Origin: Gnetum montanum
Lineage: Eukaryota; Plantae; Gnetophyta
NCBI GenBank assembly: GCA_015680685.1
Contig: MNCI01000614.1
Coordinates: 660,248 to 724,247, forward strand
Reading direction: 5' to 3'
Length of the DNA: 64,000 nt
The notes under the pieces were generated by a model. It did not search any database. It was not told the origin of the DNA and worked only from the letters and a program-made list of their open reading frames with translations. Positions 5,601-45,535 of the stretch are shown here, piece by piece. Position numbers and translations under genes: made by a program. How positions within the stretch are numbered: position 1 is the first letter of the stretch; each line of letters opens with the position of its first letter.

Positions 5601-5660
5601 AACTATTTTCTATTTTAGACCTAGGTGGTGAGGTGCTTTCATACAAGAAAGAAGACATAC
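2656..5660 (-). pseudogene. gag-protease of element A with long N-terminal extension (disrupted)
   Basis: Protease fragments at 2656-2847 and 2863-3291; retrotransposon gag core ~4150-4700 (KLKLFPRTL..., W..MLELFNDKY); colinear with 28420-31560 of element X. Confidence 0.8.
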
Positions 5661-5775
5661 TTGTCTATTCAGTGTGCAATGTATTCTTGTTTATTATTTT
5701 CTCAACCAACCCTAAAGGTTAATTTCAATGATGTGAATGATTTCCTATGTTTTAGTTAGTGCACAAACAACTAAG

Positions 5776-5793
5776 TCCCTGGCAACGATGCCA
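5776..5793 (-). promoter_or_regulatory. Primer binding site (tRNA-Asp type)
   Basis: Minus strand TGGCATCGTTGCCAGGGA right after LTR end ...GCTCATCA; matches the Athila PBS consensus TGGCGCCGTTGCCGGGGA. Confidence 0.85.
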
Positions 5794-5794
5794 A

Positions 5795-24000: not shown

Positions 24001-25756
24001 TACAGTAGTAGATTGGTGACTGGACAATGCATTTTTTGATAAGGAAGGGAAGGATTCTCTTGGTAATGGCCATCCTTTTAGCCATTGCTTGGTTCATTAT
24101 GTCCATTGCTCCCCCACCATAAGAATTTGGAAACAAAGTGGATCAGTTGCTACAAGGCTTCATCTAGTCCAAGGGAAAGGGGGGGAAGTGGATTCATTTG
24201 GTGAGTTGGGATACCATGGCTTGGCTCAAGGAGGTGGGTGTTGAACCCCAAAATTTTGTTTGATTTTTTTATAAGTATTTTGTTAAAAGCATGCATTTCA
24301 ATTAATTTCATATTATTAATTAGTGTAAATTAATATTTATTTTATNNNNNNNNNNNNNNNNNNNNNNNNNNNNNNNNNNNNNNNNNNNNNNNNNNNNNNN
24401 NNNNNNNNNNNNNNNNNNNNNNNNNNNNNNNNNNNNNNNNNNNNNNNNNNNNNNNNNNNNNNNNNNNNNNNNNNNNNNNNNNNNNNNNNNNNNNNNNNNN
24501 NNNNNNNNNNNNNNNNNNNNNNNNNNNNNNNNNNNNNNNNNNNNNNNNNNNNNNNNNNNNNNNNNNNNNNNNNNNNNNNNNNNNNNNNNNNNNNNNNNNN
24601 NNNNNNNNNNNNNNNNNNNNNNNNNNNNNNNNNNNNNNNNNNNNNNNNNNNNNNNNNNNNNNNNNNNNNNNNNNNNNNNNNNNNNNNNNNNNNNNNNNNN
24701 NNNNNNNNNNNNNNNNNNNNNNNNNNNNNNNNNNNNNNNNNNNNNNNNNNNNNNNNNNNNNNNNNNNNNNNNNNNNNNNNNNNNNNNNNNNNNNNNNNNN
24801 NNNNNNNNNNNNNNNNNNNNNNNNNNNNNNNNNNNNNNNNNNNNNNNNNNNNNNNNNNNNNNNNNNNNNNNNNNNNNNNNNNNNNNNNNNNNNNNNNNNN
24901 NNNNNNNNNNNNNNNNNNNNNNNNNNNNNNNNNNNNNNNNNNNNNNNNNNNNNNNNNNNNNNNNNNNNNNNNNNNNNNNNNNNNNNNNNNNNNNNNNNNN
25001 NNNNNNNNNNNNNNNNNNNNNNNNNNNNNNNNNNNNNNNNNNNNNNNNNNNNNNNNNNNNNNNNNNNNNNNNNNNNNNNNNNNNNNNNNNNNNNNNNNNN
25101 NNNACATGAACATTATAAAATTATCACAATTTACCTTTTATATATATAAATATTAAATTATCAGCACTTTCTTATTATTTCAACTTTTCTCGTCCCAGAA
25201 GAAACTACCATCCGAATTTCACCACTTTGTTTGCACGTTAACGAATTTTGAATACGGTTTTATGTTTTGAAAGGAAATTTGAACTTGGGAATTTTATAAC
25301 TGTTGTGAATCTGGGATGGTATTTTAGACAAGCCACTGACATGTTACAATGGGCCCGACAGTAGAGCAAGGTTTCTAACGCTAATGCAATTGTTGTAGTT
25401 GTTAGTTAAGCAACTGGAAACTCTGCCGAAATAGATCTCACGAACAAACAATTTGAGAGGGAGAAAGAGGGAAATGCAATTGAGAGGGAGAAAGAGGGAA
25501 ATGTAGTAGCAGCAGTAGTTGGAGCCAAGAAAGGTAGCAAGAATCCCCCATCATTATCATGATCTTCATCAAGAGCGGCAGCTTTGGTTGCCCTGCACGT
25601 TCTGGGTGAGCTGTTTCTAAGCACAAATAGACTGATTCTTCTTATTATTTGTACACATGCAGAACAGTTGCAATTGAGGATGACGAGGATGACGACTTCG
25701 CCAATTTGTATATCATAAAACCTCATCACTATCACCATGGGAACTGCATGGACCAT

Positions 25757-26552
25757 TTATGAGTGACGAGGTACCACTACACTGAACGATACAAATACGA
25801 GGTGCCTACATGACTTATGGAACACTTAAGGTTAATCATTTGTTGTCTACCGAGACTTACTTGTATTTGTCATAGTTGTATGGTTAAGTAAGTCTGAGGT
25901 ATATGATTTTTATATCTTTTCTTTTTTATCTCCTATCCTATACTGACGAGGTGAAGGGGTGAAAAGACTAATTACTAACTTTAACTAACTAACTAAGCCT
26001 TAATTAACCCAGCATCACCATCCGTTCCCACTTACCGTTCACACCCTGAACTAATGCAACCTTGGTTACCAAACGCTACTCGTTGCTAGGATCACCAAGC
26101 GTAATGCACGTGCTAGAAGCGGTCGTATTGAATGTACTTAACTACGGGAGAAGGGTTGAGAAATATTTAATGACTAATAAAGCAATTAAATGATAAACAA
26201 TAAATAATAGTAAATAAAATCCCAATTAGCCTATTCCATGCACTGCAAGGTTTATCTAAGAAGTTCATCTTTATTTTCATACACAAACTTGTGTTTAAGT
26301 ACAATATTTGCTCGAATAAAAATCCATTCATTTTGGAGCTTCTACTGCAGGCACATGGAAATTATTCTATTTTTGGAGAGGTAAAATTGCCAGAGTTTCG
26401 CTACGGTCTAGGCCTAGAATGACAAACAAGGAAGAGTCGCCTCTTATTTATAGATCTGACAGTGCACTACGATATCATGTACGCGATATTACAGGGGAAG
26501 ACGTGATATCGCATATGCAATATCATGGCCCATGTGATATCGCATCCCATCA
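25757..26552 (-). repeat. 3' LTR of X
   Basis: Aligns with 31707-32563 apart from internal deletions; ends CATCA. Confidence 0.9.
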
Positions 26553-28124
26553 TACCCCCATGCCTGAATAAAAACTCATCCTCAAGTTCCTTACAAAATA
26601 TTAGGATGGTATGGAATTATTGACTCAAAATGGAACTAATGGGATGACATGTGAACGGATCATCATTACAAGATAAGACAAAACTAGTGTTCACGACAAC
26701 AAGAGTGAACACTTTATACATTTGATATCAAGCCTCATTTGGCAGCTGAGAAAGAGAGAGAGAGAGAAAGAAGTTTTGTTTTTGCCAACGCCAAGATTGT
26801 GCCTTTTTTTGCCTATCCATAAGCACGCCATCCATCTCGTTTTTTGCATAGTTGTTTCAGTGCCGATCCATTCCAAGTGTTTCCTCCAAATCCAATCCGT
26901 TGTTGTATGATCACCATCTGCACACACAACATAGTCTTTATATTAGTAAGGGTAAATGAATCATAATGCAATTGATACCTTGCTTTGGTGAAAGGTCCAT
27001 TGGTTGAGTTGTGATATGGCTGATACGGATTTGGAGGTATCATAGTGGTGACTACCGAAGCTATAAGGGTTAGGAGAAAATCAAAAATTTCAGTCTGGAC
27101 CCCCATGACTAAGAGCAAACCTTTGGTAGCGATAGAATGGAGAAAAAATAAAAAACAAGAAAGATGGAGAAAAAGAGACAAATATAACATCGATGAAATG
27201 GATTTCANNNNNNNNNNNNNNNNNNNNNNNNNNNNNNNNNNNNNNNNNNNNNNNNNNNNNNNNNNNNNNNNNNNNNNNNNNNNNNNNNNNNNNNNNNNNN
27301 NNNNNNNNNNNNNNNNNNNNNNNNNNNNNNNNNNNNNNNNNNNNNNNNNNNNNNNNNNNNNNNNNNNNNNNNNNNNNNNNNNNNNNNNNNNNNNNNNNNN
27401 NNNNNNNNNNNNNNNNNNNNNNNNNNNNNNNNNNNNNNNNNNNNNNNNNNNNNNNNNNNNNNNNNNNNNNNNNNNNNNNNNNNNNNNNNNNNNNNNNNNN
27501 NNNNNNNNNNNNNNNNNNNNNNNNNNNNNNNNNNNNNNNNNNNNNNNNGTCTAAGGGGTGTGCTTTGAATTCTCACTATTTTTTTTTGTTGTTTTATGTA
27601 TTTATGTGTGAGAACCACACCATGCAAAGACTTTGTTATTTTTATTTTCTTAGCTTCCCAATAATTGGGTAATGTCAGAACAGTAAGAAAACTCAAGAAG
27701 AAAACATCCAAGCACCCAAGAGAACGGCCAACATAAATGCATCAAGTTCCCTTGAACTCACACCCTTTTCAATCCTTGAGTCCTTCCTTAGTTTGAGAAA
27801 TGCCTAGTCACCGATTCATTGATAGTTCTTATTTAGAAAGGGACTATACATTTCCAAGCCAAGAGAGACTATAGAAATCTATGGATGTATGGATGAAGTG
27901 GACTCATTGTTTGCTATATCAAAAGAACCATACCTTAGTATCAACATCATGACTTAAAGGTAAAAACCAAACATTAGCAACCAATAGAAAAATAGTCCAT
28001 ACTATCATTAAGAACACTTATTGGTGACAAACTTAACAGAATGGATAATTCACACGCACACACACACAAGAAATGAAAAATTATGAATGATGTTGTAAAA
28101 TAAAAACAAGAAAATTTAAAGAAA

Positions 28125-28200
28125 TTTGTAAAACAAAAATGTGTAAAACAAAAATGTATAAAACAAAAATGTGTAAAACAAAAACGTGTAAAACAAAAAC
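28125..28200 (+). repeat. 15-bp tandem repeat (AAAACAAAAATGTGT-like), about 5 copies
   Basis: Visible directly; a related motif occurs at ~53095-53170 in element Z. Confidence 0.85.
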
Positions 28201-28289
28201 TTAAAAAGAACTGAGGGCCCCAAATGATTAGCATAGGTGGTTATCTGCCGAATGACTGAATGAAAAGGGCAGGATCCAAAATAACGAGT

Positions 28290-31200
28290 ACCTTTTTAAA
28301 TTTCTTAGAAGTGTCCAACTTCTTCCAACTGATGTTTTCAGGTTCAAGGATGAAAGTTGGCAACGCTCATATTCCAATGTATCTATGCTTTTGTTATGGG
28401 CATGAGTTATTCCCCAAGTTCATTCTATGCATGTTGGTTGGTTGCTCTTTCGATTAGCTATCAACCACGGGGTGTCCACTTGTTGTGTGGTTGCTTCATA
28501 TATGCACCTTTGTCTTAGAGTTTCTAAGGCATACCAGTTGCATGCAAGAGATGCTGAGCATTCCTCCATGTCATCACCCTCGAAGTCACTATATGTGATG
28601 CATGGAACTTTCTTCTTCTCGATCTTTTCATAAATGTTTACCTTAGATATTTCCAGGGAAAGATTGTGAATCCCTAGGCATGCACCTATTGTACTTAGCC
28701 ATGCCCTTCCCATTATAATTGAGAAGTCCCCTTTGTCATTGTTTATGTGGATCACCAGGAAATCAGCTGGGTATGACCAACCACACATAGTGGTAACGAT
28801 GTCCTCCATCAATCCCAATTGAATGGTGATGGATTGGTTAGCCAGCTCTAGTTGAATGTTGCTCTTCTTGAGTTGGGGCAGGTTCCAGGCTTGATACATT
28901 TCTCGTGAGATTAAGTTGACTCTGGAACCTGAATCAAGAAGAGCCTTATGAGGTTCATTCCTAGCAACTTAAGGGACTTACAGGGTCAAATAGTTTCCTG
29001 GGAAGGTCGCCTACCTTGATCTAGTCATTTACGGTATGTGTTAACATAACCATATGTGTTAAGCTTTGTGGTTGGTTTGAAGGGAGCTCCGAAGCCTTAT
29101 GTGTTGAGGAGCATATACAAACTCAACTGCTTGTGGTTGTGAAAGCTTATCTGGGCTTTTAATTCTAAAGAAAGGTCTTCTCTTCTTGCGATTGTCAGAA
29201 CCAACAACGGATTGAAGGTTTACAACTCTCGTAGCATTACGTTGCTGTGGTTGAGTGGGGAGTTCCCTTTGCATTGTTGGAGCAGGAGGTATTGGAACTA
29301 ACAGTGTGTGAGAGGTGGATGGATTTGAAGGATGGTATGGGTGTGGAGTATCTCCCGGAGGAGAAAGAGTCCTTCTAAAATACTCCCGAACTTGGTAGTG
29401 ATGTTGTGGAGTTGTGTGACCCATGGCTGTTGCATGTAGTAGCCATATGAGTCTGGTTGCCAGTAAGGGTATTGCTGTCTAGGCGGTGGCATCCCCCATG
29501 ACTGTGGGCGTTGCCACTTCTAATGTTGCTCGATAGGTTGTGGCAGAGTTCCACTTGGATAATGCGTTAACGGTTGGTGGAACTGCCTCAGGTTACCTTG
29601 GGGATAAGGTAACCAACGAGGTGCTTGTCGTCTATTAAGTCTCGGGTTGAGTGCATACATCCCAGACTCTTGTAGATGTGAGATTATTGGGCAATATCCC
29701 TTAGGATGGTCATATTGGAAGATCTCACATCCACCATCATTTTCTATGTCAGAATCCACAACCTCATCGACGATGTTCATTTTCCCCTTACCTTTGTCAT
29801 GTGCATGACCTGAATCTCTCTGCTTTTTCTTATCCTTGTCACTACTTCATTCCTCCTTAGATTCCTCTACAATTTTTAGGAAAATTTCAATTTTACTATC
29901 TAAGGAACTCCATATTTCATCTACTTTAGCCGATACTTCCATTGTTAGCTTTTGAAGTGGCAAGGTTTTTCTATTCACCAACTCCTTGAGTGGTGACTCA
30001 TCCTCTTCATCGCAGAATCTCACTCCCCTCTTCTGGAGGAAAGGATTGCTGTTATATTCTTCCATGCTTTCTCTTTTCCATAGCTACCCTTCTTCTTTAG
30101 CTACTTGCTCCAAAAATCTGTGAAGTTCATGGGATCTAAGTTCTAATAATCTCCCTTGGGCATAAGTCCCAAGGGTTCTCCTAGTTTCGTGTCTTAGCCC
30201 ATCTATGAGGTGGCGTAGTTGATCCCGTTGTGCGTAACCATGGCCCGGGAAACGATGTAGCAATACATAATATCAGCCCATGGCAGTATCCAAGGGTTCA
30301 TAATTACCTTTCTTCCATCCTTGGATCTACTTACACAAGTTAGACACTCTAGAGTACATTTGATATTTATCGTTGAAGAGTTCTAACATTGTACTCCACC
30401 TCCTAATGGTTTCCAGTTCTAAGGACTGGTACCAACTCTCTGCTTCTTTTATGAGTGTCCTAGGAAACAAATTTAGCTTCTACCACTTGTTTTCTATGTT
30501 CTGCAAGGTGTAGGCATCGTGGAATTCCTATAAATGATTTTGCAGATTAGCGTTGTATCCCCCTTCGAATCGTGGGATATTATTCATATCTAATCTCTTT
30601 ATTCGACTATCCTTTTGATACCTTGTAGGTATTCTCACTACCTCTATTATATCTAACATACTTTGGGTGGCAAGTAGGGGTTCATCATGATCATCTCTTT
30701 CATGACGTCTATGATGCCTACGTTGTTCCCTACTTTTTCTTCTACCATGCCTAAACTCTCTAAACTACCCTCATCCTCTCTCTTGATTTTCTCGTCGAGG
30801 TCTCTCATTTTGCTTACCCTTATCCTCACTGTTATGTTCTTGGTGACGGTGCCCTAATGTGGAAGGAGAGGGTGAATGATGTGATGAAGGGGAAGAAGAA
30901 GGAGAACCATCTCCATAATGATGTTTCTTACCTTCTCTTCGATGGCTTCGGCCCTGATCGTGATGATGATTTGAGTGCCCATCCTTATCATGTTTTTTTG
31001 TTCCCTTGGTGAATAGTTGGAGTTCACGGGGATCAGAACCACGGTTGCATATCATGGAGTGTAGGTTTTGATACCCCACCTCCTCACTATCGTTAGGAGG
31101 GGAAACATCATTTGATGAAGAACCTATTATGATTGGTTCACCATCTCCTATTTCTCTTAGGATATGCAGGACCCCTTTTCCCTTCAACAATGTATGGTGG

Positions 31201-31565
31201 CTCTCCTACCTTGAGTCCCTTAAACGTTGTGCTATTTTGGGATGGTAATCCCTATGTCAAAATCACCTATAATGTACTCAGCATATAGCTGTGTCATGCC
31301 TATCTGTGCAAGAGCACGAAGAAGTATGTCAGGGATTGCCCGATCTAGAGGTAACACTATGTTATCTTGAAAATCTCTCCAACGCAATTGTTCATCCTGA
31401 TTGAGGATAAAGGTAAAATCAAGTATATTCTCATCATGATGAGTATATACCACCCTATATTGTTGAGGAACTGGTGGATTTTGGTTATGTATGTTAGACT
31501 ACTGACTACTTCTTGTATGATCCCTAGGTGGTGAAGTGCTCTTATGAGAAGAAGAAGAAGACATT
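28290..31565 (-). pseudogene. gag-protease of X (disrupted)
   Basis: ORF fragments 28420-28899, 29059-29424, 29847-30065, 30771-31190, 31232-31453; colinear with element A. Confidence 0.85.
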
Positions 31566-31687
31566 GTGTCTTATTCGGTGTGTTGATTAACTGTTATATA
31601 ATTTTTTTTAATTAACCCTAAGGGTTCGTTTAGGCTCCCAATGATGTGGATAATTTCCTATGTTCTACTTAGCGCACAAACACTTAG

Positions 31688-31705
31688 TCCCCAGCAACGG
31701 TGCCA
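31688..31705 (-). promoter_or_regulatory. PBS (tRNA-Asp type) of X
   Basis: Minus strand TGGCACCGTTGCTGGGGA adjacent to the LTR. Confidence 0.9.
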
Positions 31706-31706
31706 A

Positions 31707-32563
31707 TGATGAGTGGCAAGGTATCCCTATACTCAACCATATAAATATGAGCGTTACACACATGATCTGGTCGAACTCCGTAAACGAAGTGCCTACACGC
31801 CTTATGAAACACTTAAGGTTAATCATTTGTTGTCTTCCCAAACTTGTATTTGTCATGGTTGTATGGTTAAGTAAGTCTGAGGTATATGATTTTTATATCT
31901 TTTCTATTTTATCTCCTATGTTGATGAGGTAAAGGGTGAAGAGACTAATTACTAACTTTAACTAACTAACTAAGCCTTAATTAACCTAGTATCAGCATCC
32001 GTTTCCACTTACCATTCACACCATAATCCAATGCAACCTTGGTTACCAAACGCTACTCGTTGCTGGGATCACCGAGCATAACGCACATGCTCGAAGCGGT
32101 CATACTGAATGCACTTAACTACAAGAGAAGGGTTGAGAGAGATTTAATGACTAATAAAGCAATTAAATGATAAGTAATAAATAATAGTAAATAAAATCCT
32201 AATTAGCCTATTCCATGCACTGCAAGGGTTATCCAAGAAGTTCGTCTTTATTTTCGTACACAAAATTATGTTTAGGTACAATATTTGCTCGAATAAAGAT
32301 CCGTTCACTTTGGAGCTCCTATTGTAGGCACATGGAAATTATTTTATCTCTAGAGAGGTAAAACTACCAAAGTTTCGCTATGGTGTAGGCCTAGAATGAC
32401 AAACAAGGGAGAGCCACCTCTTATTTATAGATCTAACGGTGCACTGCGATATCGCGTATGTGATATCGCAGGGGAAGACGCAATATCACGTACACGATAT
32501 CATAGGGGATGCAATATCGTAGTGGATGCGATATCGTGGCCCATGCGATATCACGTCCCATCA
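31707..32563 (-). repeat. 5' LTR of X
   Basis: TGATGAG...CATCA, 857 bp; TATA-like CTATAAAT on the minus strand at ~32423-32430. Confidence 0.9.
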
Positions 32564-32654
32564 ACCATCTACAGTGAGATTCTACAGTGAAGCAAGATCA
32601 TCGAAGGAGTCGCATAAACAATGGTAGCAAAGTGGCTAAGCGCAAACAAAAACA

Positions 32655-33260
32655 GCAACACATGCTAGTTTCCATACTAGAAAACTCCCACTTTGTCAAC
32701 AAATACATGAAGGATAACCAAAAAAGCCTCCATGAACATCAATGTCTACTTGTTTTGGGACTCAACTACGTTGGAATTCAATGCCTACAAGGAAATGCGG
32801 GGTTGTTTTGCTGAGTGGACATGAGAAATCTATTGCTATTGCAAGTGCCAAACAAAATTCCATTGGGAGCAGGGCACTACCCTTCAAAGATTTAGTGGTA
32901 TTTGACGATCTAGTAATGTAGGGGACGAAGAACACATCTCATGCTCTTGGCAAAGCCCAAGGACTGTACATGAACATAGGACACAAATCACCTTTACTTG
33001 GCGGACATAGATCTATTAGTTATTGGCAGCACCAATGCCTTTATCTTTGATCATGGCATTGCCTGATGCATCACATCTTAGCTCCTTAGAATCAGGCTCT
33101 GTTTTTAACATGAATGACTACGGTAGGGATAAAATTTCTTATACATTTCTGATGGTGGTGGAAGGCTACCCAATTTGGCACACCAATCCAAACCAGATCC
33201 ATGGTTGGAAAGGGCTATGCTTGGATATCAAGAATGGCAATGACAGCAACAGGGCTAGGT
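32655..33260 (+). pseudogene. Captured host gene fragments in the 5' LTR of Y (ACC synthase, dirigent, ricin-B-like lectin)
   Basis: GIQCLQGNAGLFC*VDMRNLL; FKDLVVFDDLVM*GTKNTSHALGKAQGLY; IHGWKGLCLDIKNGNDSN. Confidence 0.75.
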
Positions 33261-34038
33261 GGTCGTCTTTTTGCAGGGAAAATCAACACCTACGTGGGGC
33301 ATCACATACACCTCTTTTGTAGCTTGCCTTAAAATTCATATTAATTTAAAAAATTAGAAAGCTAAGATTAGTAGTAGTACCAATTTTAACAAATTGGTAT
33401 TGGGTTTTGTAATACCTATATATTATTATAATATTTATTTTTAAACCTTGTTGCAATATAAATAAGGCATCATTTGTGTATGAATACAGGGGGGCATTCA
33501 TTAGGCACAAAAGAAGAGAACACATTGTACATACACATTAAAAAAAATTTCATTTCTTTTGAGAAAACAAGAGAGGATGAGTTGATACCAATGAATTCTA
33601 CATCGAATTGGAATTAATTATTCTTGAGATTTTTGTTGAAGATTTGTTGAGCCTTGTGGAAATTCTTATAATTCATCATTAAAATTGTTGCATTGTGGAA
33701 ACAGCAAGGTAGGATTGCAATTTAGGCAAGTCCTTTGTGATCTTCAATTATTATTTATAATTTCAATTTTATTTAATTATAAATATTTATTCTTGAATTT
33801 GTGATTAGAAGTTTGGATAAAAGTTTATAATTTTACTTCTAAGTGAGAGGCATAAGTGTGGAATTTAATTGAATTCAATTCTAACTATTTATTGTTTTAA
33901 TGATTTCTTTGACTTTTTAACTGCTCATCCATGGGATACGACTTGCAGGTTAGTCACAGACAAGGTGACAATATCTAGAATAAGGAAAAAATAAATTTTA
34001 AAGATATTCAGCACCAAATTTTTTCTGGCTCATCAATT

Positions 34039-34056
34039 TGGCACCATTGCTGGGGA
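34039..34056 (+). promoter_or_regulatory. PBS (tRNA-Asp type) of Y
   Basis: TGGCACCATTGCTGGGGA three bases after LTR end ...GCTCATCA (34035). Confidence 0.88.
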
Positions 34057-34499
34057 GGTTGGCAGAGTTAATCATCATCAAGGGTTCAATAAGCTTTATT
34101 TTTTTTATTTTTTTTATTTCTTCATGCTTTTTATTTTAGCATTTTATTTTTCTTTTATTTTTGTAAATTAAGAAATGGTTTCTTTTACTTGTTTTTCCTA
34201 TCTAAAGAAAAATAAAAATAAAAATAAACAAAAATCCTAGAAATCAGCTCCTCTTATCATACAACCAGCTAAAATCATTAAAAAAGTTGCAATTAAAGCT
34301 ATGATACTAAGAGCCATTAAATCAATTTGTAAATTTTTAGGAATGATAGCCCATGAATGTGCCAACGAAGAGTGTTCATGTTAAATGAAATCAACAAAGC
34401 AACCAAAGAAACCCACATGAATTCAACCATCTAGAAGCACTCTTAACCTTTATAGATGTACAAAAGTTAATCAAAATCAAAATAAAAAATAACCAATAT

Positions 34500-37400
34500 G
34501 ATCAAGATCTGATTATTCTTCCCCTCAAGAGACACAAAATCCCAACGAGAAAATGCAACCTAATTTTCCATAACTATCAACCCTCTATTTGACATTTCAA
34601 CATTAGCCATGAGTTCAACTACGAGGGTAGGATCTCAAGATTTAAATACTACCTCAATATCAATCTATGTGAGCACAATTGGAGGTATTACCCTACCAAT
34701 AAGCACTTTGAATATACAAACTCCACCAATAGTAACCTCATTACCAAGTCCTATAGTAACTCCAACAATAGCTTCAACTTATACTATGGGATCATACTCA
34801 CATCATGTACCTCCTGCATTCTCTTTAGGTCCAATTTCTCTCTCTTTTGGTAGTTTGAGCTCTAATGTTCAAGTTAATCAACCATACCTAGGACAAACCC
34901 TTGGAGAATTATTAAATCAAGGAACATCAATTATACCTCAAGGCCCATTGGTTTTCCCACAATTAGTTCTTGGGATGAGTTTAAGAACACTTTCCTACAA
35001 AGATTTCTTTCTAATGATAGGCTATACTCATTAAGAAAGCAATTAATGAGTTTCATGCAACATGAGAATGAGGACTATGAAAGCACCTTTGATAGTTTTA
35101 AAGGGTAATGTTTAAGGAATCCAAACCATGGCTTTCCAGCCCCATCAATTAATCCAAATCTTTGTAGAAGGATTACTACCTTATTGTAGGAAAAATGTTG
35201 ACTTTGCATGTGGGGGAAATATTTTAAATGTGACACCAAAAGATGGTTGGAGAATTATAGATTCATTAGTAGACCAAAGTAAACGTTGGCCAAAACCCAA
35301 CATTATGCAAGGCATGACTCAACAAATAGAACAATTAAATAGAAAAGTTGATGAGTAAACATGTGTTTTTTGAAAAACAAGCTCATGGAATCCAAAGTGA
35401 AGCATGCACCATTTGTGGTAGTCCCCAACATGACCAAATGACTTGCCCAACCTTGTATTATTCTTAAGAGGAAATACAAGAGTTAGCTAAGGCTTTTCAA
35501 CAATTTAAGAGCCAACCAACAATGAACTTTCCTCAATTACCATTCTACACACAACAACATCATCAAAATAATTTTAGGCCATTTAAGAATCTAACTAATG
35601 AACACATAGATAAACTCACCCAAAGCCTCACTTAATAGAAGAAAGTAGATAATTTATGAGTGAAACTAGGAGAAGATTTCAAGACTTAACTAGACATGAA
35701 TTACAATCTCAACTTGAACCTAATCCTACATCTCAAAGAAAAGTAAAAGATCAATTACATTACTACAAGGAGTGGAAAAATAATTGAACCTAAACCCCAA
35801 AAGAAGGTGATATTCCAAGAGGTAGAAACACAATAGTAAATAGAACCACAAGTATTCAATAAGAAAGATCAACCAACTATGGAAAAAGAACAACCATTAC
35901 TCTCTAGACAACCAATTTTACCTCATTTTCCTAAACAATTGTAAGAAAACTTCACAACCAAAGCCCATCTTGAAAAAATGTTTAGTGAACTATACTTGCA
36001 TATTCCTTTAGATTAAGTAGTAAAATACATGCCACTGTATGCCAAATACTTAAGGGAATTATGCACCAGGAGAAGAAAAGAAAAAATTCCTAAACAAGTT
36101 TATTTAGTTGATAATCTTTCTCAACTTATACAAAGACATGAAATTCCTAAATACCAAGATCCAGGAGTTCCTACCATTCCAATCAAGATAAATGGACAAG
36201 AAATTAGGAATGGCCTATTGGATTTAGGAGCTAGTATTAATATTATGCCTCTTGAAATGGCTAGATAACTAGATATAGAGGATATAAGAAGAGTAAACAT
36301 GACAATATCATTAACTGATGGTTCAAGTGTAACACCCATAGGAATCATAAAAGACTTAATAATAAAGGTAGAAAAAGGAAAATACCCAATTGATTTTGTA
36401 GACCTAAAAGTGAAAGATCCTAATTGTTTTCCCATTATATTAGGTAGACCTTCGTTAGCAATGACTGATGTAGTAATTAATTGTAGATCTGGCCAGCTTC
36501 AACTCTCATTTGCAAATCTCACTTTTAAACTAAATGTATATGATAAGGTAAAAGAAGATCATTTAAATATAGACTTGAGGCAGGTAAGAATGCTCTACAC
36601 TCTACCCACTTCAGCAATGGCACAAGCTAGGGAAACCTTAGTGTTAAATAATTTTGAGGAAGGACCTTTAGACCCCTCAACTACGAAACAACAAGATTTC
36701 CTTGACCAAATTCTAAATTTAGGGTCTGAAAATATTGCAGAAATAATTCAACCTACACATAAATATTCCTTAGATCTTAAAGAATTACCTTATACACTTA
36801 AGTATATTTTTCTAGACAAAAATAAGTCATTAATAATAAATTCCCAACTTACCAATGAGCAAGAAAATAAACTATTAGAAATCTTGTGTAGAAAATTTGA
36901 GGCATTTGCATGGAGCTATGAGGACCTTCATCAAGGAATCTCACCCAACATCTACCAACATCGTATCTATCTATAATACAATGTTAAACCAAAAATAATT
37001 CCCCCAAGATGAATTAATCTAGCCTTAAGAAAATAGTTAAAGAAAAAATTTCAAAACTTTGGAAAGGAGAAATCATTTATCCAATAGTAGATAGTGAATG
37101 GGTAAGTCCCATTACTATAGTTCTAATAAAGGTTGGAAAATGGAGAGTTTGTGTAGACTATAGAAGATTAAACCAAAACACAAAAAAAGACCATTTTCCA
37201 TTACCATACATAGATCATATTCTAGAAAAAATAGGACATGAATACTACTATTTTTTGGATAGATTTAGTGGTTACAATCAAGTAGCTATTTCCCCTGAAG
37301 ACCAACATAAAACAACCTTTACATGTCCTTATGGAAATTTTTCTTATAGACGACGAATGCCTTTTGGCTTTTGTAATACACCAACCACTTTTTCGAAGAG

Positions 37401-39579
37401 CCATGATCTCAATATTTTCGAATATGTTAGAAGACTATGTTGAAGTCTTTATAGATGATTTTTTAGTTTATGGGGATACTTATGGTGAAACCTTACAACA
37501 TCTTGAACATGTCTTAGATAGATGTATAGATAAAAATTTAAAACTAAGTTGGAAAAAGAGTCATCTAATGGTTACAAGTGGTGTAGTATTAGGACATGTT
37601 ATTTCTAAAGAAGGGATAAGAATGGATGATGAGAAAATAAGCGTCATATCTACACTTCCAGATCCAACCAATTTAAAGACTCTTTGATCTTTTTATAGGA
37701 CATGTTGGATATTATAGAAGATTTATCAAAGACTTCTCAAAACTTGCTAAACCAATATATATGCTCCTAGAAAAGGATGTTTCATTTGTTTGGACCAATT
37801 ATTGTCATGAAGCATTTTTGGAACTAAAAAGATGAGTAACCACAACCTCTATATTAAATGCACCTAATTCGGATTATCCATTTCATTAAATGTATGATGC
37901 TAGTGACACAGCAATAGGGGTAATTTTGGGACAATACATTGATAATAAATAAAGAGTGATTTATTATGTGTCCAAAAGTTTAGACCAAGCCCAAGTAAAT
38001 TATACAACTATAGAAAAAGAACTATTAGCCATTGTATATGCTCTAGATAAATTTAGACATTATTTAATTGGATATAAAACTAGAGTATATATTGATCATT
38101 CAGCCATTAAATTCTTAGCTTCTAAAAAAAATAGAAAATTCAAGAATAATGAGATGGTGTTTATTACTCCAAGAATTTGACTTAGTTATTATAGATAAAA
38201 GAGGTAGGGAAAATGTAGTAGCAGATAATATTTCTAGGTTAGAAACTCCTAATGAGAATCAAACAAAAATAAATTTTCATGATGAATTTTCTGATGAACA
38301 ACTTTTTTCTACAAAGAAGAATCCTTGGTTTGTTGATATAGCCAATTATCTAGCTACTATGAAAACTCTTACCAATTGGATTAAGGAAGAAAAAAAAATA
38401 TTTCTTACATAAAATATCTAGATACATTTGGAGTAGTCCATACCTCTATAAATTATGTAAAGATAATATAGCAAGAAGATGTGTGGTTGAAAATGAACAA
38501 CAAGAAATTCTACAAAAGGGTTTATGATGGTTTAGGGGGAACCCACTTTGATAGTAAATGTACTACCATCAAAATCCTTCAAAGTGGATTTTATTGGCCC
38601 TCCATTTTTAAAGCTTCATCTAAGTATGTGCAAGAGTCTAATAAATGTCAACAAATGGAAGCTAAAAGAAAAAGACATGAAATGCCCTTAAAATCCATTT
38701 TAATAAAAAAACCATTTGATGTGTGGGGTATCGACTTTTTAGGACCATTTTCACCATCTAATGGATGTTAATACATTTTGGTTTGTATTGACTATGTTAC
38801 TAAATGGGTAGAAGCAAAAGCCACCCCAACAAATGATGTAAAAGTAGTTGTAGCATTCCTTAGGGAAAATATTTTAACATGCTATGGAACTCCACGGGCA
38901 ATCATTAGTGATCAGGGAACCCATTTTGTCAATAAAATCATGAAAAAATTCCTTAAGTCTTGTGGTATCCAACATATAATAGCTATTGCCTATCATCCAC
39001 AAATAAATGGCTAAGTAGAGAATGCTAATAAAATTATCTTAAATATATTAACAAAAACTGTATGTACCAAAGGGAAGGATTGGTTTAAAAAATTACAAGA
39101 TGCACTTTGGGCTTGTAGAATTACTTATAAACCAAGTTTAGGTTATTCAACTTATCAATTGGTTTATGGTAAGTTATGTTTATTACCAGTTGAACTAAAA
39201 TATCAATTTTTATGATTAACCCAACAACTCAATTTTGATGAAGACATGAACCAAGCCTCTAGAATTAATCAACTTCATGAACTTGACGAAATGAGGCTAC
39301 ATGCCCTAGATAAGCAAAGAATTGTAAAAAGATAAATGAAAACATTACACAATAAAAATATCTTTAAAAAATAATTCTCTGTAGGTGAAAGTTTTATTTT
39401 ACAATATGAGATTACATAAATTTCCAAGAAAATTAACAACTAGGTGGAAAGGCCCTTATTTAGTTGTTCAACCTCATGATAATGGAAGTATCCTCATATC
39501 ACCTATCGAAGATTCCTCAACAACGTTCCTAGTCAATGGTCAAAGACTTAAGCTATATCATCAACACCACATTGAGTAA
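34500..39579 (+). pseudogene. gag-pol of Y (gag, protease, RT, RNase H, integrase), many stops and frameshifts
   Basis: LLDLGASINIMP; DHFPLPYIDHIL; EVFIDDF; NYTTIEKELLAIVYALDKFRHYL; PFDVWGIDFLGPF; GTPRAIISDQGTHF; RWKGPY...VNGQRLKLY. Confidence 0.93.
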
Positions 39580-42139
39580 CCTAAAGAAGACAAATTAATA
39601 GAAGTAAGTGATCCAACTTATCCTACTACAAATGATTTACATGAAAACCATTCATTAGAAGTCCTAGCTCTTAAATATACCCCTAAACTAGACTCTTTCA
39701 TCATCAAATAAATTAATAAAAGAATTATATTCAGTCTACAAATTTTACCTTGCAAAATGTAGAGGTCAATAGAAAATTCTATTGTGAGTTGGGACTATAA
39801 AGAATTCAGTAGCATCATGTTTGAAATGCAAAGGAGAAGAACAACTCCTCCTACCTTGAAATAGGTAGGTTTAAACCCAAAATCCAACTAAGGGTGAGCC
39901 TTAGACTAATAAGTGTCTTAAACATAATAAATTTCATTGTTTCTAAAACAATATTCTTTAAGTACATTGTTCATAAATTAAGGTAGCTACATAGCTTAGT
40001 TTAAGGTAATGTTTATCGGTGTTTAGTTTCTATTAAATACTTACTTGGATGAGTCATTAAGGTGGAAAGGGTGTGTTATATTGGACCTTGTTTCTTCGGT
40101 AGTAAAAGGCATCTATCTATATTAAACCATGTGAGAAACCCTTATAAAATGAAATTGGCTCCCACAAGGACCTCATGATTTAAGTCAATTAGATATTGAA
40201 TTTCTTGCAAAAGAAAAAAAGAAAAAAAAAAGAATTAAAAAAATGAATGATGAGAAAAAAGAGAGTAAAAAGATAATATACAATGCAAGAAATAGTTAAA
40301 ACAAAAAAAAAATAATAACCCCACAAGAACCTTCAATCTTGAGTTGAGCCTCACTCCCACAAGAACCTTATAGTTGGGGTGATGCTCCAAGCTCACAATT
40401 TCAAGCATCCTACAAGAACCCCCTTCTGTAAGCAAAGTGTTTAAAGATTAGGCACCAATCATCAATCTACTCTTGATGCCCCTACCTTAGAACTAGGATA
40501 TAACATTGGTAGCAAAAGTGTCACTCATCCACAATTAGTATGTTAATGGACATCTTCACCTATAATCATTCCTTTCACTTTGTTATGTAGTTACTTTACT
40601 TATGTTTCTTTGTACTTTTTAGACTATTTTTTTCTTTGTTTTTGTTTTGAACTTCTCATATTATTATTTTCTTTTATTTACCTAATTTTTACCTTTTGAT
40701 ATTCCTCTTTTTCATTTCTACGTTATCATACTATTTTTATTCTACATGGTCATCTCATTTGACTAGTGGTATTTTTGTGCATGAGTTTTCTTTGTGTTTT
40801 CCATCATGTCTTCCATAGGTGTTAGTAGTCAAGATCCCTACTATGGTAGCCAATGATGGATACTAACACTTGTTCACCCATTGCCTTTGGTTTCCTCTTA
40901 GTTTGAATATATAAAACCTAGGGCAATTCTTGCTTTTGGTATATCCTTTGATCATGTTTTCTTTTAATAATTTATCTTTGCTAATTAACCTAAGTATGTT
41001 ACATACCTTAGCTTAATTTTGGGGGTGGGAGGGTGTGTGTGTGTGTGTGTGGGGCCCATGGATAACCAAGTAATAAAGGATATTATAGTAGGGTATAACT
41101 AAATTGGAAGCTAAACCAAGAACAAGTTAGCAAATGAGTAAGATGTAAGTAATGTATCTCGAATCCTTAAATCATAAGAGAGGTCTAACCCTTGAGGTTA
41201 TAAGAAATTCGTACACCTAATGAAGCAAACCTTGTGAGGTGATGTTAAGCCCAAGAAATCTTAGGTAGGGTCTTCCTAATCGAGTTCTATGTGGACTCAT
41301 ATCCAAGAATAAGAATTTATCACCAAAAGAAGAATAATCATATATACATAATAAATAATTAATGTTATATTAAGACATTATATATACAATTACATAAACC
41401 ATATAAACATTATAATTTATATGAATATTATATATATTATATAATTTATATAAATATCCTANGTATATATAAATATTAAATTATCAACACTTTCTTATTA
41501 TTTCAACTTTTCTTGTCTTGGAAGAAACTACCATCCGAATTTCACCACTTTGTTTGCACATTAATGAATTTTGAATACGGTTTTGTGTTTTGAAAGGAAA
41601 TTTGAAATTGGGAATTTTATAATCGTTGTGAATTTGGGATGGTATTTTAGACAAGCCACTGACATGTTACGATGGGCCCAATAGTGGAGCAAGGTTGCTA
41701 ACGCTAATGCAATTGTTGTAGTAGTTGTTAGTTAAGCAGCTGGCAACTCTGCCAAAATAGATCTCACGAGCAAACAATTTGAAGGGGAGAAAGAGGAAAA
41801 TGCAGTAGCAGCAGTAGTTGGAGCCAAGAAAGGCAGTAGGAATCCCCCATCATTATCATGATCTTTATCAAGAGCGGCGACATTGGTTGCCCTGCACGTT
41901 TCGGGTGAGCTGTTTCTGAGCGCAAACAGATGGATTCTTCTTATTACTTGTACACATATGCAGAACAGTTGCAATCGAGGATGACGAGGACGACGACTCC
42001 GCTGATCTGTATATCGTAAAACCTCATCACTATCACCGTGGGAACCGCAAGGACCATCTACAGTGAGATTCCACAGTGGAGCAAGGTCATCGGAGGAGTC
42101 AGTGTAAACAGTGGTAGCAGAGCCGCTAAGCCCCACCAG

Positions 42140-42325
42140 AAACAGTAGCACATGCTAGTTTCCATACTGGCAGACTCCCACTTCGTCAGGAAATACATGA
42201 AGGAAAACCAAAAAAGCGTCCATGAACATCAATGTTTGCTTGTTTTGGGACTCAGCTATGCTAGAATCCAATGCCTACAAGGCAATGCAGGGTTGTTTTG
42301 CTGGGTGGACATGAGAAATCTATTG
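42140..42325 (+). pseudogene. ACS: Captured 1-aminocyclopropane-1-carboxylate synthase fragment in LTR
   Basis: MLVSILADSHFVRKYMKENQK...LLVLGLSYARIQCLQGNAGLFCWVDMRNLL matches the conserved ACS region (L.SML.D..F...Y..EN..RL...GI.CL..NAGLFCWVDMR.LL). Confidence 0.85.
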
Positions 42326-42555
42326 CTGTTGCAAGTGCCAGACAAAATTCCATTGGGAGCAAGGCACTAGCCTTCAAAGATTTAGTGGTATTTGACGATC
42401 TGGTAATGCAGGGGCCAAAGAACACGTCTCATGCTCTTAGCAAAGCCCAAGGAATGTACGCAAACATAGGGCACAAATCGCCTTTACCTGGCAAACATAG
42501 ATCTATCAGTTATTGGCGGCACCAATGCCTTCAGCTTTGACCATGGCATTGCCTC
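42319..42555 (+). pseudogene. DIR: Captured dirigent-protein fragment (internally deleted) in LTR
   Basis: AFKDLVVFDDLVMQGPKNTSHALSKAQGMY resembles FG.lvVFDDp.t.gp...S..lGrAQGmY; in another frame DLSVIGGTNAFSFDHGIA resembles dlsVvGGTG.F..ArGiA. Confidence 0.75.
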
Positions 42556-42659
42556 ATGCAATCACATCTAAGGTCATTAGAATCAGGCTCTATTTTTAGC
42601 ATGAATGACTGCAGCAGGGTTAGAATTTCTCATACATTTCTGTTGGTGGTGGAAGACTA

Positions 42660-42750
42660 CCCAGTTTGGCAGATCAATCCGAACCAGATCCACGGTTGGA
42701 AGGGGCTATGCCTGGATATCAAGAATGGTAATGACAGCAATAGGGCTAGC
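42660..42750 (+). pseudogene. Possible ricin-B-type lectin fragment in LTR
   Basis: QIHGWKGLCLDIKNGNDSNRA resembles the I.G..GLC.DV..G...G motif of ricin-B repeats; short match only. Confidence 0.5.
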
Positions 42751-43517
42751 TTGTCATCTTTTTTGCAGGAAAAATCAACACCTATGTGGGGCATCACATA
42801 CATCTCTTTTGCTGCTTCTCTTAGAATCCATATTAATTTAAAATATTAGAAAGCCAAAATTAGCGGTACCCATTTTAACAAATCAGTATTAGGTTTTACA
42901 TATATTATTATATGTATTTATTTTTAAGCCTTGTTGCAGTATAAATAAGGCATCATTTGTGTATCATTGAAGGGGGCATTCATCATGCACAAAAGGAGAG
43001 AACACATTGTATATATACTAAAAAAAATTTCATTTCTTTTGAAAAAACAAGAGAGGAGGAGTTGATACCAGTAAATTCCACATCAAATTGGAATTAATTG
43101 TTCTTGAGATTTTTGTTGAAGATTTGTTGAGCCTTGTGACAATTCTTGTAATTCATCATCAAAATTGTTGCATTGTGGAGACAACAAGGTGGGATTGCAA
43201 TTTAGGGAAGTCTCCTTTGTGATCTTCAATTATTATTCATAATTTTAATTTGATTTAATTATAAATCTTTATTCTTGAACTTGTGATTAGAAGTTAGGAT
43301 AAAAGTTTATAATTTTACTTATGACTGATAGGCATAAGTGTGGAATTTAATTGAATTCAATTCTAACTATTTATTATCTTAATGATTTTTTTAACTTTTT
43401 AACCATTCCTCCACAAGATACGACTCGCGGGTCAATCACAGACGAGGTGACAATCTCTAGAACAAGGAAAAAATAAATTTTAAAGGTATTCAACACCAAA
43501 TTTTTCCTAGCTCGTCA

Positions 43518-45535
43518 GTGGGCAAACTAGGGATTCTCAAATTCATGGACATGATCAGAATGGGACATCAATAGCTAAATGGGATTAACACCAACCAGAC
43601 ACAATGGATCTAAATTATGCACAACAAATATCAACACTAGATAGTGGCTCCTCATGATTCGTTACTTTGGTGCTCACTTTTCCATCATGCGTAGAACATG
43701 ACACAGCTGGGTTTGATTACAGTACCATCTTGCCTCATTATATGCATCAATATCCTACAATGTCTAGTTGGTTGCCAATCTAGCATGGTAGATTACCAGA
43801 CAAGGTAAAGATGTTCTTGTGGTTAGTTAACCATGTTGCTCTTCCTATGCAAGTTGACTTGAAGAGACCAAGTTTGAACTTGGACAACAAGTGTCCCTCA
43901 TGTAATCAACTACCTAAAACATAGTGCCACTTTGCTTTTGAATGCACTTTTAGTAGGGAAACATGGTACATTGTTGTAATCTCCCCACCCATACATTTTG
44001 ATGATGACTCGAAGGCCACTATGATATTGTGGTCTTTGTGGTAGTCACACAATCACCTTATTTTTAGACAAGTGGCTTTATTACCACCTACGCAAGTTGT
44101 TGCAGAGGGAGTGAGGTTGTGACAAGAAGCTACAGTTGGAATGGTGGTGACTCCAACTTTCAAACCTTCCTACGCTAAGTTTTAGGAAATGCTTGAGTTG
44201 TGGGACCTAGTTATGCATGTTAGGTGGGCTAATTTCCTCCCATTGCTAGTGGGAGATTTGGCTTTGTCAAATAGTGAGTTTTTGCTAATTGGAAAAATGA
44301 CTGTACCACATTTCATGGGGTTCAAATTGAACTCACTGAAGAAGCATTGGTGAGAGTTCTAGGTGTGCTAGTCTCTAGCGAAGTTGTGCTACCAATAAAC
44401 AAAGGCTTGCAAGATGCAAAGGCCTTCTTCACCAAGCCTATGCCACAAACTACAAGCCAACAAGTGCCTAAATCAACATTGCCCTCACTATGGCAACATG
44501 TAGTGGAGTTGATTGAATGTTTTATCATTTAGACTGGTAATGTTTGAAAATTATAGGGGGCTTACTTTACACTCCTTAAATGTTTGATCATGGGACAGAT
44601 GATGAACATTCTTAGGTTTTTTCTGAACTCCCTAAGATGTCAGTGATTAGGGAGACCCTCAGGTCTTATTCTTTCCTTATGGAGGGTGGTTGGGTTGGCA
44701 CCTATGATGCAGAATCCTATTCAAGCCTATAGCTCTATCTATATTAGATAGAGGTAGCCATAGGTGGTTGTTGTTGCTCAAATGCCTCTAAGTTGGCTAG
44801 TGGTGGTGCTAGGAGAAGCCCAACATTCTAAGGAGGAAATGATAGAGACTGATGTTGGGTAAAGATCAAAAGGAAGTTAGGAGCTATCCACCTTGTAGAA
44901 TAGGATTGATGTGGCTATGGAAGAGGCCACCTCTTAGGCATGGGAAAAGGAGTGAAGGATATGGGAGGCAAAGTGGGAAGCTAGGAAAGAGGCCTTTTAG
45001 TGGTAGTTGTAATAGATGGAGCTCCAGCACCAAGAAATGGTTGAGGTACTTCAATGGTAAAGGGAAGTGGAGAACATGACTATTAGGGCTATGTTGAAAG
45101 AAGGACTCCACAAAGGATTGAAGAAAGAGCTTCAACAAGAGGAGCTCTTTAGAAAAACGCTAGAACATGAAGAGAAAATTCAAAGGGAAAATTGAGCAGA
45201 GGGAGAATGAAGTGTTATGACAGCAACTTGATCAAGCACATGAGCAAAACACAATCACCTAGCTATAGGAGGGGAAATGATCCTATGTCAAAATGCAAAT
45301 CAATCATAACTCCTCCTGGCAAGAGCTCAAATGGTGCATCTAGCTTGCATTGGTAAAACTCCATTTGAATGGTAGGGGCAATGTGCCTACCAGGGTGTGT
45401 AAGGCTGAGGCCTTTAAGATTTTTTAGCAAGTAGCTACCTTTGTGGATTTTGAGGAACATCATGCTCTACTGGACACTCTCCACTTGCAACCGAGGCCTA
45501 ACTGCATATGCGTGCATCTACCTTAGCATTTCTGA
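43518..45535 (+). pseudogene. L1 ORF2 C-terminal part: zf-RVT followed in frame by an extra domain and coiled coil
   Basis: LPDKVKMFLWLVNHVALP...CPSCNQLPKT*CHFAFEC; ILWSLW*SHNHLIF continues in frame to LWDLVMHVRWANFLPLLVGDL. Confidence 0.85.

What the first reader, a model, noticed from the sequence alone, without database searches (positions are those of the whole stretch)
41640..42850. Athila LTRs carry a mosaic of captured host gene fragments (ACC synthase, dirigent, ricin-B-like lectin)
A GC/CpG-richer ~1.2-kb island sits in an otherwise AT-rich LTR. It contains abutting, intron-free, same-strand pieces of unrelated genes: ACS (42140-42325, NAGLFCWVDMRNLL), dirigent (42319-42555, two motifs with the middle deleted) and a lectin-like motif (42660-42750). 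The same mosaic is in the 5' LTR (32655-33260), so it was copied by reverse transcription as part of the LTR. Multi-gene capture is established for Pack-MULEs and Helitrons, and transduction into LTR-element internal regions is known, but serial capture within the LTR itself is unusual. Inference: template switching onto co-packaged stress/defence mRNAs (ethylene, lignan, lectin). Possible consequences are siRNAs targeting host defence genes, or protection of the LTR from silencing.
Basis: partly seen in the sequence, partly recalled or inferred. Interest (0 to 1): 0.85.

Follow-up and report, generated by a model that had tools for sequence, protein, structure and literature searches.

The report
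Host-gene mosaic inside retrotransposon LTRs
One old, dead plant jumping gene carries in both of its terminal repeats the same 1.3-kb patchwork of pieces from four or five host genes, which was likely put together elsewhere, likely pasted in as one block, and then likely copied to both ends by reverse transcription; it is rare in the family and shows no sign of use.

Summary
Real, and larger than reported. An Athila-type element (24239-43517, TSD GTGGG, inside a LINE remnant) carries a 1.28-kb mosaic (41491-42773) in both LTRs, upstream of the TATA box. Pieces: the 3' end of an unidentified expressed transcript in antisense, a cellulose-synthase-like (CslD-type) piece, ACC synthase (PDB E 7e-14), dirigent (Pfam E 1.5e-7) and a ricin-B-like motif (unproven, E 0.018). 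Island and ordinary LTR differ equally between the LTRs (K2P 0.115 vs 0.114), so the island was copied at insertion. Corrections: not all same-strand; no piece spans an intron; rare, not family-wide (contig depth up to 71 vs 100-27,000); no selection; 0 of 81 RNA reads at 95% identity or more. An 8-bp direct repeat brackets the island, there is no TIR or Helitron end, two donors share 9 nt at their junction, and a third locus keeps ACS-dirigent-lectin with the dirigent middle intact. Most likely a pre-built mosaic was pasted into U3 as one block (LINE-type or repair insertion); serial capture by the element's own RT is the main rival. The scan noted an mRNA fragment inside an LTR in another genome. 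New variant of a known kind; 0.5.

The parts
24234..24238 (+). 5-bp target-site duplication GTGGG, left copy (right copy 43518-43522); the flanks join into one LINE ORF2-like frame
   Evidence: zf-RVT E 2e-11 on the right flank
24239..34035 (+). 5' LTR (TG...CA), about 3.0 kb without the nested element; N gap at 24346-25103
25160..25756 (.). 5'-LTR copy of the left half of the island: 8-mer ATCAGCAC, antisense gene piece (25168-25682), first part of the CslD-type piece
25757..32563 (-). Nested LTR element (TSD ACCAT) inserted into the CslD-type piece of the 5' LTR
32564..33289 (+). 5'-LTR copy of the right half of the island: rest of CslD-type piece, ACS 32660-32843, dirigent 32829-33065, lectin-like 33110-33262, 8-mer 33282-33289
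34039..34056 (+). Primer-binding site TGGCACCATTGCTGGGGA, 3 nt after the 5' LTR (tRNA-Asp type is recalled, not tested)
34878..39570 (+). Decayed gag-pol in Ty3/gypsy order: gag, RT, RNase H, integrase; many stops and frameshifts
41464..43517 (+). Visible part of the 3' LTR; its start was not found (single N at 41462)
41483..41490 (+). 8-bp direct repeat ATCAACAC, left copy, directly before the donor match begins
   Evidence: (X6 record 9 starts at 41491)
41491..41983 (-). 3' part (likely last codons plus 3' UTR) of an unidentified, expressed, polyadenylated host transcript, antisense to the element
   Evidence: donor contigs 93% alike, RNA reads in X12 and X15, poly(T) loose end at 41604 in 3 reads, X12 first mates on + only
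41975..42100 (+). Cellulose-synthase-like (CslD-type) C-terminal piece with an internal deletion near 42021-42032, shared by both LTRs; 9-nt donor-donor overlap at 41975-41983
   Evidence: Pfam E 0.002, below cut-off; RNA loose ends; the CslD label is recalled
42101..42149 (.). Unassigned 49-nt spacer
42150..42333 (+). ACC synthase piece
   Evidence: X6 record 12, 85% over 42162-42333
42319..42555 (+). Dirigent piece with a net 89-nt middle deletion at 42459-42469, shared by both LTRs
   Evidence: X6 record 11
42601..42753 (+). Coding-like piece with a ricin-B-type motif; label unproven
   Evidence: negative
42774..42781 (+). 8-bp direct repeat ATCAACAC, right copy, inside the 20-nt zone where high-copy family homology begins
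   Evidence: (X1 depth 6.5 at 42770, 123 at 42790)
42782..43517 (+). High-copy family part of the LTR: TATA-like box 42940-42947, poly(A) loose ends at about 43204, CA end

Best explanation
A 1.28-kb patchwork of host exon pieces sits in the likely U3 part of both LTRs of one dead Athila-type element; it was likely assembled in steps at another locus, likely pasted as one block into a progenitor's 3' LTR, and then likely copied into both LTRs by the element's own reverse transcription. Shown: position between the element's TG start and its PBS, upstream of the TATA box; equal LTR-to-LTR divergence of island and ordinary LTR; shared deletions; rarity; neutral decay. Inferred (about 0.6): insertion as one block, from the 8-bp direct repeat at both breakpoints. 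Inferred (about 0.3 overall, the likeliest single route): LINE-type target-primed reverse transcription of a chimeric RNA in which all pieces were in sense, with twin priming inverting the 5' part. This would explain the repeat, the single antisense piece next to the left repeat, and the microhomology at the point where orientation flips. Two-sided break repair with filler DNA would give the same anatomy (about 0.2). The island is a passenger: one round of LTR copying gave two copies and the variant did not spread.
For: TSD GTGGG and a continuous LINE-like empty site fix the 5' end at 24239; the element's start is not repeated downstream of the island, so a tandem three-LTR reading fails. K2P island 0.115+-0.010 vs family part 0.114+-0.014. 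ATCAACAC lies directly before the donor match at 41491 and again in the 42771-42790 zone where family homology starts; chance about 0.001-0.002. No TIR, no 9-10-bp repeat, no Helitron 3' end. The two donors share TCGAGGACG at the orientation flip, read from RNA loose ends and the 41982 variant (chance about 4e-5). Third locus: X1 record 3 crosses the ACS/dirigent junction with 23 substitutions where the 5' LTR has 14; X6 record 11 has 43 vs 29 and 40 vs 31 and keeps the dirigent middle. 1169 of 1296 nt are assigned to exon-like pieces, 1016 without the lectin-like piece. Synonymous changes do not exceed a neutral null in 7 of 7 segments, P 0.17-0.87.
Against: The left breakpoint rests on one contig of a sister organism, with only 11 nt of flank in the laid stretch. 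The left 8-mer has one mismatch in the 5' LTR. No family LTR with the empty site was seen. There is no clear poly(A): GGAAAA in the 3' LTR and GGGAAA in the 5' LTR before the repeat. The third locus does not appear to carry the CslD-type piece upstream (one X6 contig at 42042-42086), so it is not the full predicted source RNA. An X6 contig joins the lectin-like piece to family LTR sequence (42706 to 43028) and depth is higher over that piece, which fits stepwise gain inside LTRs. The 3' LTR's start was not found. The nested element's K2P (0.14) is nominally above the host element's although it must be younger, so the clock is rough.
Confidence: 0.5

Rival explanations
1. Serial capture inside U3 by the element's own RT switching onto co-packaged host RNAs over several replication rounds (first reader; Bs1 and Tan-2016 type), lectin-like piece first and antisense piece last.
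For: Nearly all of the island is exon-like. 9-nt donor overlap at one junction. Copy depth and donor distance both rise from left to right: antisense donor 93% alike, ACS donor-like contig 85%, more contigs over the lectin-like piece. X6 joint 42706 to 43028. Template switching into an LTR is described for BARE-2 (PMC13317346).
Against: One piece is antisense, while transduced pieces are usually sense (PMC7264820). By the standard model (recalled), a switch onto mRNA during plus-strand synthesis would reach only the 5' LTR and not be inherited. The 8-bp flanking repeat looks like an insertion, whereas Tan et al. found replacement without insertion signatures. No intron loss shown.
Confidence: 0.3
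2. An ordinary Pack-type DNA element (Pack-MULE, Pack-hAT, CACTA or Helitron) landed in the ancestral LTR and lost its ends.
For: Multi-gene, GC-rich, exon-biased cargo is typical of Pack elements; an 8-bp duplication is the hAT length (recalled); the left flank lies beside assembly gaps.
Against: Host sequence begins directly after the left repeat, leaving no room for a TIR. No inverted match between the right end and the left flanks in 6 tests, best 5 of 200 shuffles. No multi-copy terminal sequence at 42722-42770. No CTRR followed by T near the right end; Helitrons make no duplication (recalled). A Pack element may still have built the mosaic at the third locus.
Confidence: 0.12
3. The island entered one LTR after the element had inserted and reached the other by gene conversion, or the second copy is an assembly artefact.
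For: Both LTRs lie beside assembly gaps, and the 3' LTR's start is missing.
Against: Island and ordinary LTR have the same divergence; both copies are present as separate contigs in a public DNA run (X1 records 1 and 4 match the 3' LTR with 0 differences; records 2, 5, 6 have exactly the 5' LTR's difference counts).
Confidence: 0.03
4. The island is useful: it shields the LTR from silencing, adds enhancers, or makes siRNAs that regulate the donor genes.
For: It lies 159 nt upstream of the TATA-like box; gene fragments in TE-linked loci can make siRNAs that act in trans (bioRxiv 10.1101/2021.06.10.447945).
Against: The variant stayed rare; neutral decay; 0 of 31 and 0 of 50 RNA reads reach 95% identity (long-RNA runs only); in Platycladus, TEs with captured pieces were not less methylated (PMC13477047).
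Confidence: 0.1

Closest known systems
Maize Bs1 (pieces of three host genes; PMC13317346 parts 1-2 and PMC5131818 passages)
   Same: A plant LTR retrotransposon carrying fused pieces of several unlinked host genes.
   Different: Bs1 cargo is described as flanked by the element and forms an expressed chimeric gene; here the cargo is in the LTR itself, present twice, with one antisense piece, flanked by an 8-bp repeat, and dead.
LTR-mediated retrocopies of animals (Tan et al. 2016, PMC5131818 passages)
   Same: Partial mRNA pieces, multi-gene chimeras, short shared sequence at junctions, further copying by the element.
   Different: There the cargo replaces internal ORF sequence and shows no insertion signature; here it lies in U3 with a target-duplication-like repeat.
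Cassandra, Helenus and Ajax TRIMs (PMC10886601 abstract and section 4.2)
   Same: Host-derived sequence inside both LTRs; proposed origin by a SINE insertion into an LTR that LTR replication then copied. This is the same two-step route as my best reading.
   Different: Their insert is one small-RNA gene that supplies a Pol III promoter, and the families are old and abundant; here it is a protein-gene mosaic in a full-length element, rare, with no shown role.
BARE-2 (Wis-2 sequence switched into the BARE-1 LTR; PMC13317346 part 2)
   Same: Foreign sequence gained in the LTR region.
   Different: The donor is another retrotransposon, not host genes.
Pack-MULEs, Pack-CACTA, Helitrons (PMC13317346, PMC2773423)
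   Same: Cargo of several short, GC-rich gene pieces.
   Different: No TIRs or Helitron ends here; the vehicle that doubled the cargo is an LTR.
LINE retrocopies with 5' inversion by twin priming (named in PMC9605557 passage; details recalled)
   Same: Target duplication, inverted 5' segment, microhomology at the inversion point.
   Different: No clear poly(A); the single chimeric source RNA is predicted, not found.

Membership tests
Athila clade (Neumann et al. 2019) | Ty3/gypsy domain order gag-RT-RH-INT | tested here: met
Athila clade (Neumann et al. 2019) | No extra archaeal RNase H (its presence marks Tat) | tested here: met
   No such Pfam hit among ORFs of 75 aa or more; only 334 nt between RNase H and the integrase zinc finger. 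Other positions were covered only by that ORF scan.
Athila clade (Neumann et al. 2019) | PBS for a non-Met tRNA; 5-bp TSD; TG...CA ends | tested here: met
   the tRNA-Asp reading of the PBS is recalled
Athila clade (Neumann et al. 2019) | RT phylogeny groups with Athila references | not tested
   No reference set at hand; hence 'Athila-type'
Athila clade (Neumann et al. 2019) | PPT directly before a 3' LTR that starts like the 5' LTR | tested here: inconclusive
   PPT-like TTTGGGGG at 41018, but the 24239 start is not found at 39500-41500; single N at 41462
LTR-mediated retrocopy (Tan 2016, Bs1 type) | Short shared sequence at junctions | tested here: met
   9 nt at the one junction where both donors were visible; other junctions not resolved
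LTR-mediated retrocopy (Tan 2016, Bs1 type) | Cargo replaces element sequence, with no insertion signature | tested here: not met
   8-bp flanking direct repeat; empty site not seen, so provisional
LTR-mediated retrocopy (Tan 2016, Bs1 type) | Intron loss relative to the donor | tested here: inconclusive
   Donor DNA contigs align without intron gaps over the ACS and antisense pieces, and the skips seen are in DNA and RNA alike
Pack-MULE / Pack-hAT / Pack-CACTA | Terminal inverted repeats | tested here: not met
   host sequence abuts the left repeat
Pack-MULE / Pack-hAT / Pack-CACTA | TSD of family length (9-11, 8, 3 bp; lengths recalled) | tested here: inconclusive
   8-bp repeat present, none of 9 or 10 bp
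Helitron | 3' hairpin plus CTRR before T, no TSD | tested here: not met
   9 weak hairpin-CTRR sites, all internal, none followed by T
LINE retrocopy with 5' inversion | Target duplication, and inverted 5' segment with junction microhomology | tested here: met
LINE retrocopy with 5' inversion | 3' poly(A) tail | tested here: inconclusive
   Only a few A before the repeat, and it differs between the LTRs
LINE retrocopy with 5' inversion | One source RNA holding all pieces in sense | not testable with these tools
   No host genome held
Ricin-B (beta-trefoil) lectin | Significant profile match | tested here: inconclusive
   Pfam none; PDB E 0.018-1.1

The most novel reading that the evidence does not exclude
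A relay between retroelements: a five-gene chimeric RNA made at another locus was retroposed by LINE machinery, with a twin-priming inversion, into the U3 enhancer region of an Athila LTR, and the LTR then became a vehicle that doubles and carries host exon mosaics ('Pack-LTR'), with sister LTRs in this genus holding other stages of the cargo.
Probability: 0.25. Interest if true: 0.72.

Novelty: new variant of a known kind. Interest (0 to 1): 0.5.

Why it matters
Surveys of gene capture treat LTRs as the frame and look at what lies between them. In maize, 0 of 425 gene-bearing intact elements held pieces of more than one gene (PMC2774510), although across 23 vascular plants 13.68% of capturing TEs of all kinds held two or more pieces (PMC13477047). 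Cargo in U3 is doubled at each round, can survive as a solo LTR, and sits next to a promoter. This case keeps a readable order of events (third locus with intact dirigent, flanking repeat, orientation flip with microhomology), so RT switching, LINE insertion and repair can be told apart once the genome is at hand. The effect on the host is probably nil.

Tried and rejected
No whole genome is held, so donors and family copies were judged from laid contigs and reads only. The look-up of sequencing runs: no RNA holder listed. The search for homologous proteins found nothing for the lectin-like piece, the antisense piece or the proven dirigent piece; the last blank shows that these blanks mean little. 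PDB gave nothing for the 27-aa CslD-type piece. The 24-nt inverted repeat at 41525/41625 as a miRNA hairpin: fold z -0.07 and -0.60, no Rfam match at gathering level; rejected. The 24 identical residues between the two lectin-like copies as selection: 5 synonymous of 7 changes vs 3.7 expected, P 0.21; rejected. Three-LTR tandem with the island in the 3' UTR: rejected. A bacterial promoter scan and tRNA scan were uninformative. Earlier scan notes by place, by sequence and by 'plant Athila' words: none. Three papers were not held.
Full report
Element. Self-comparison shows 41464-42060 repeated at 25141-25759 and 42053-43517 at 32564-34035, both 87-88% alike. The two parts of the left copy are separated by a nested LTR element at 25757-32563 with TSD ACCAT. 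The outer element starts with TG at 24239 and ends with CA at 43517, with GTGGG on both sides; the joined flanks read as one LINE-like frame and the right flank has a zf-RVT domain, E 2e-11. A PBS follows the left repeat at 34039, and gag, RT, RNase H and integrase follow in gypsy order. No extra RNase H was found, which fits Athila rather than Tat; no RT tree was made, so I write 'Athila-type'. Everything between 24239 and the PBS, minus the nested element, is the 5' LTR (about 3.0 kb with an estimated gap; about 1.7 kb without the island). The start of the element does not recur downstream of the island, so the island is not a 3' UTR between tandem LTRs. The start of the 3' LTR was not found; a single N at 41462 may hide it. 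A TATA-like box at 42940 and poly(A) loose ends at about 43204 place the island in U3; this is an inference from motif and reads.

Pieces. ACC synthase is certain. Dirigent is certain; both LTRs share a net 89-nt deletion, because X6 record 11 has 100 letters where the window has 11. At 41975-42100 Pfam gives Cellulose_synt E 0.002, below its cut-off. Loose ends of RNA reads there translate by hand as ISFTLTSKS, WTSLMIPPIT, ITIMMVNIIG and FFSFWVLAHL, which I recall as CslD-type motifs. At 41491-41983 donor contigs are 93% alike and RNA reads of both runs lie on it. Three X12 reads carry a poly(T) loose end at 41604, and X12 first mates lie on + here but on - over the CslD-type piece (few reads). 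The lectin-like piece is only suggestive: Pfam none, PDB E 1.1 for the whole frame, E 0.018 for a 29-aa query picked around the motif, with 4 of 4 hits ricin-B-type, and E 0.17 for a two-copy profile. In all, 1169 of 1296 nt are assigned, 1016 without the lectin-like piece.

Timing and copy number. K2P between the LTRs is 0.115+-0.010 over the island and 0.114+-0.014 over the ordinary LTR part, and the deletions against the donors are shared, so the island was in place when the LTR pair was made. Both copies exist as separate contigs in run X1. Summed contig depth is 0.6-35 (X1) and 3.7-71 (X6) over the 19 island bins, and 101-20,941 and 178-27,063 over the 11 bins from 42791. The tool warns that this is no copy number, but the contrast is up to three orders of magnitude: the island is a rare variant. 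A third locus crosses the ACS/dirigent junction in both organisms (23 substitutions vs 14 for the 5' LTR in X1 record 3; 43 vs 29 in X6 record 11) and keeps the dirigent middle. Its 141 upstream letters do not seem to align to the CslD-type piece, but the tool showed only 16 of 4452 pieces. The nested element's K2P of 0.14 is nominally higher than its host's, so ages are rough.

Ends and junctions. No TIR was found (6 tests, best 5 of 200 shuffles), no 9- or 10-bp repeat, and no Helitron 3' end. One 8-mer, ATCAACAC, lies at 41483-41490, directly before the donor match starts, and at 42774-42781, inside the 20-nt zone where depth jumps from 6.5 to 123. The 5' LTR has ATCAGCAC and ATCAACAC at these places; chance is about 0.001-0.002. 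The left breakpoint rests on one contig. Where orientation flips, the two donors share TCGAGGACG, with both LTRs reading T at 41982. The ACS/dirigent overlap could not be resolved because no dirigent donor was seen. No piece crosses an intron: donor DNA aligns without intron gaps, and the skips appear in DNA and RNA alike. An RNA intermediate is therefore not shown.

Mechanism. Shown: host pieces inside the LTR, doubled at insertion, built in at least two steps. Inferred: the block went in at once. A target duplication without TIRs points to LINE-type insertion or break repair with filler DNA (PMC3445842 passages). Twin priming, which gives 5' inversions (PMC9605557 passage; details recalled), would turn an all-sense chimeric RNA into this layout: repeat, inverted 5' segment starting at its 3'-most base, microhomology, sense remainder, repeat. 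The poly(A) is weak and the source RNA was not found, so I give this route about 0.3, repair about 0.2, serial RT switching about 0.3, an eroded Pack element about 0.12. The left-to-right rise in copy depth and donor distance, and the 42706-to-43028 joint, favour the serial reading and are the main results against mine.

Function. Synonymous changes between the LTR copies do not exceed a neutral null in 7 of 7 segments. None of 31 (X12, about 2 in 100 of the run read) and 50 (X15, about 26 in 100) laid RNA reads reaches 95% identity, so the reads come from donors and family relatives. Small RNA and methylation were not testable. siRNA action from gene fragments is documented elsewhere (bioRxiv 10.1101/2021.06.10.447945, abstract and section 7), but nothing here supports it.

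What is known. Papers seen: PMC13317346 parts 1-2 of 6 (Bs1, BARE-2, Pack elements); PMC5131818 passages; PMC2774510 passages (0 of 425 multi-gene cases); PMC13477047 passages; PMC7264820 part 1 of 3; PMC10886601 abstract and section 4.2; passages of PMC6317226, PMC2773423, PMC3726574, PMC3414828, PMC9605557 and PMC3445842. Ten searches listed no paper whose title, abstract start or read passages describe a multi-gene protein-coding mosaic inside both LTRs of a plant element. The library lacks most subscription papers, three papers were not held, and supplements were not read, so this is weak. The scan's own notes hold a single-gene mRNA piece inside a solo LTR in another genome (e1-8589519) and a repair-type paste into an LTR (e1-9868148); these are unchecked leads and gave me the id of the Tan paper.

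Verdict. New variant of a known kind, interest 0.5.

Noticed in passing
window 25757-32563: Nested minus-strand LTR element (TSD ACCAT, LTR K2P 0.14). Pfam found only a protease among its ORFs of 75 aa or more. An older relative lies at 2372-6211 (71% alike).
   Followed up: partly
window 24160-24238 and 43518-44120: LINE remnant (zf-RVT E 2e-11) split by the element; the two flanks read as one frame.
   Followed up: yes
window 41730-41768 and 41797-41827: Two stretches of the antisense piece are skipped or replaced in donor contigs and RNA reads; 41706-41727 and 41799-41820 are a 22-nt imperfect repeat. The true donor may be a paralogue, or the piece was locally rearranged.
   Followed up: no
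window 42706 and 43028: One contig of organism C joins the lectin-like piece to family LTR sequence (43 letters on the short side): possibly another LTR-borne copy.
   Followed up: no
window 42363-42700: A contig of organism C matches the 3' LTR island with 3 differences in 338, so the insertion likely predates the split of organisms A and C.
   Followed up: partly
window 41018-41461: PPT-like run, (TG)n microsatellite and about 420 nt with no counterpart visible in the 5' LTR; either 3' non-coding DNA before a hidden gap, or a 3' LTR that lost its start.
   Followed up: partly
window 42101-42149: The unassigned spacer differs far more between the LTRs (K2P 0.32+-0.10) than its neighbours.
   Followed up: no
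window 25453-25503: 27-nt tandem duplication private to the 5' LTR.
   Followed up: no
window 41525-41648: 24-nt inverted repeat in the captured 3' UTR; folding no better than shuffles.
   Followed up: yes
window 21400-23900: Decayed Ty1/copia pol (integrase, SH3, RVT_2) just left of the LINE remnant; other gypsy remnants at 1700-3350, 9700-9960 and 51250-52780.
   Followed up: no
window 43067-43204: Family LTR reads on both strands in run X12, with poly(A) loose ends at about 43204: relatives of this LTR are transcribed.
   Followed up: no
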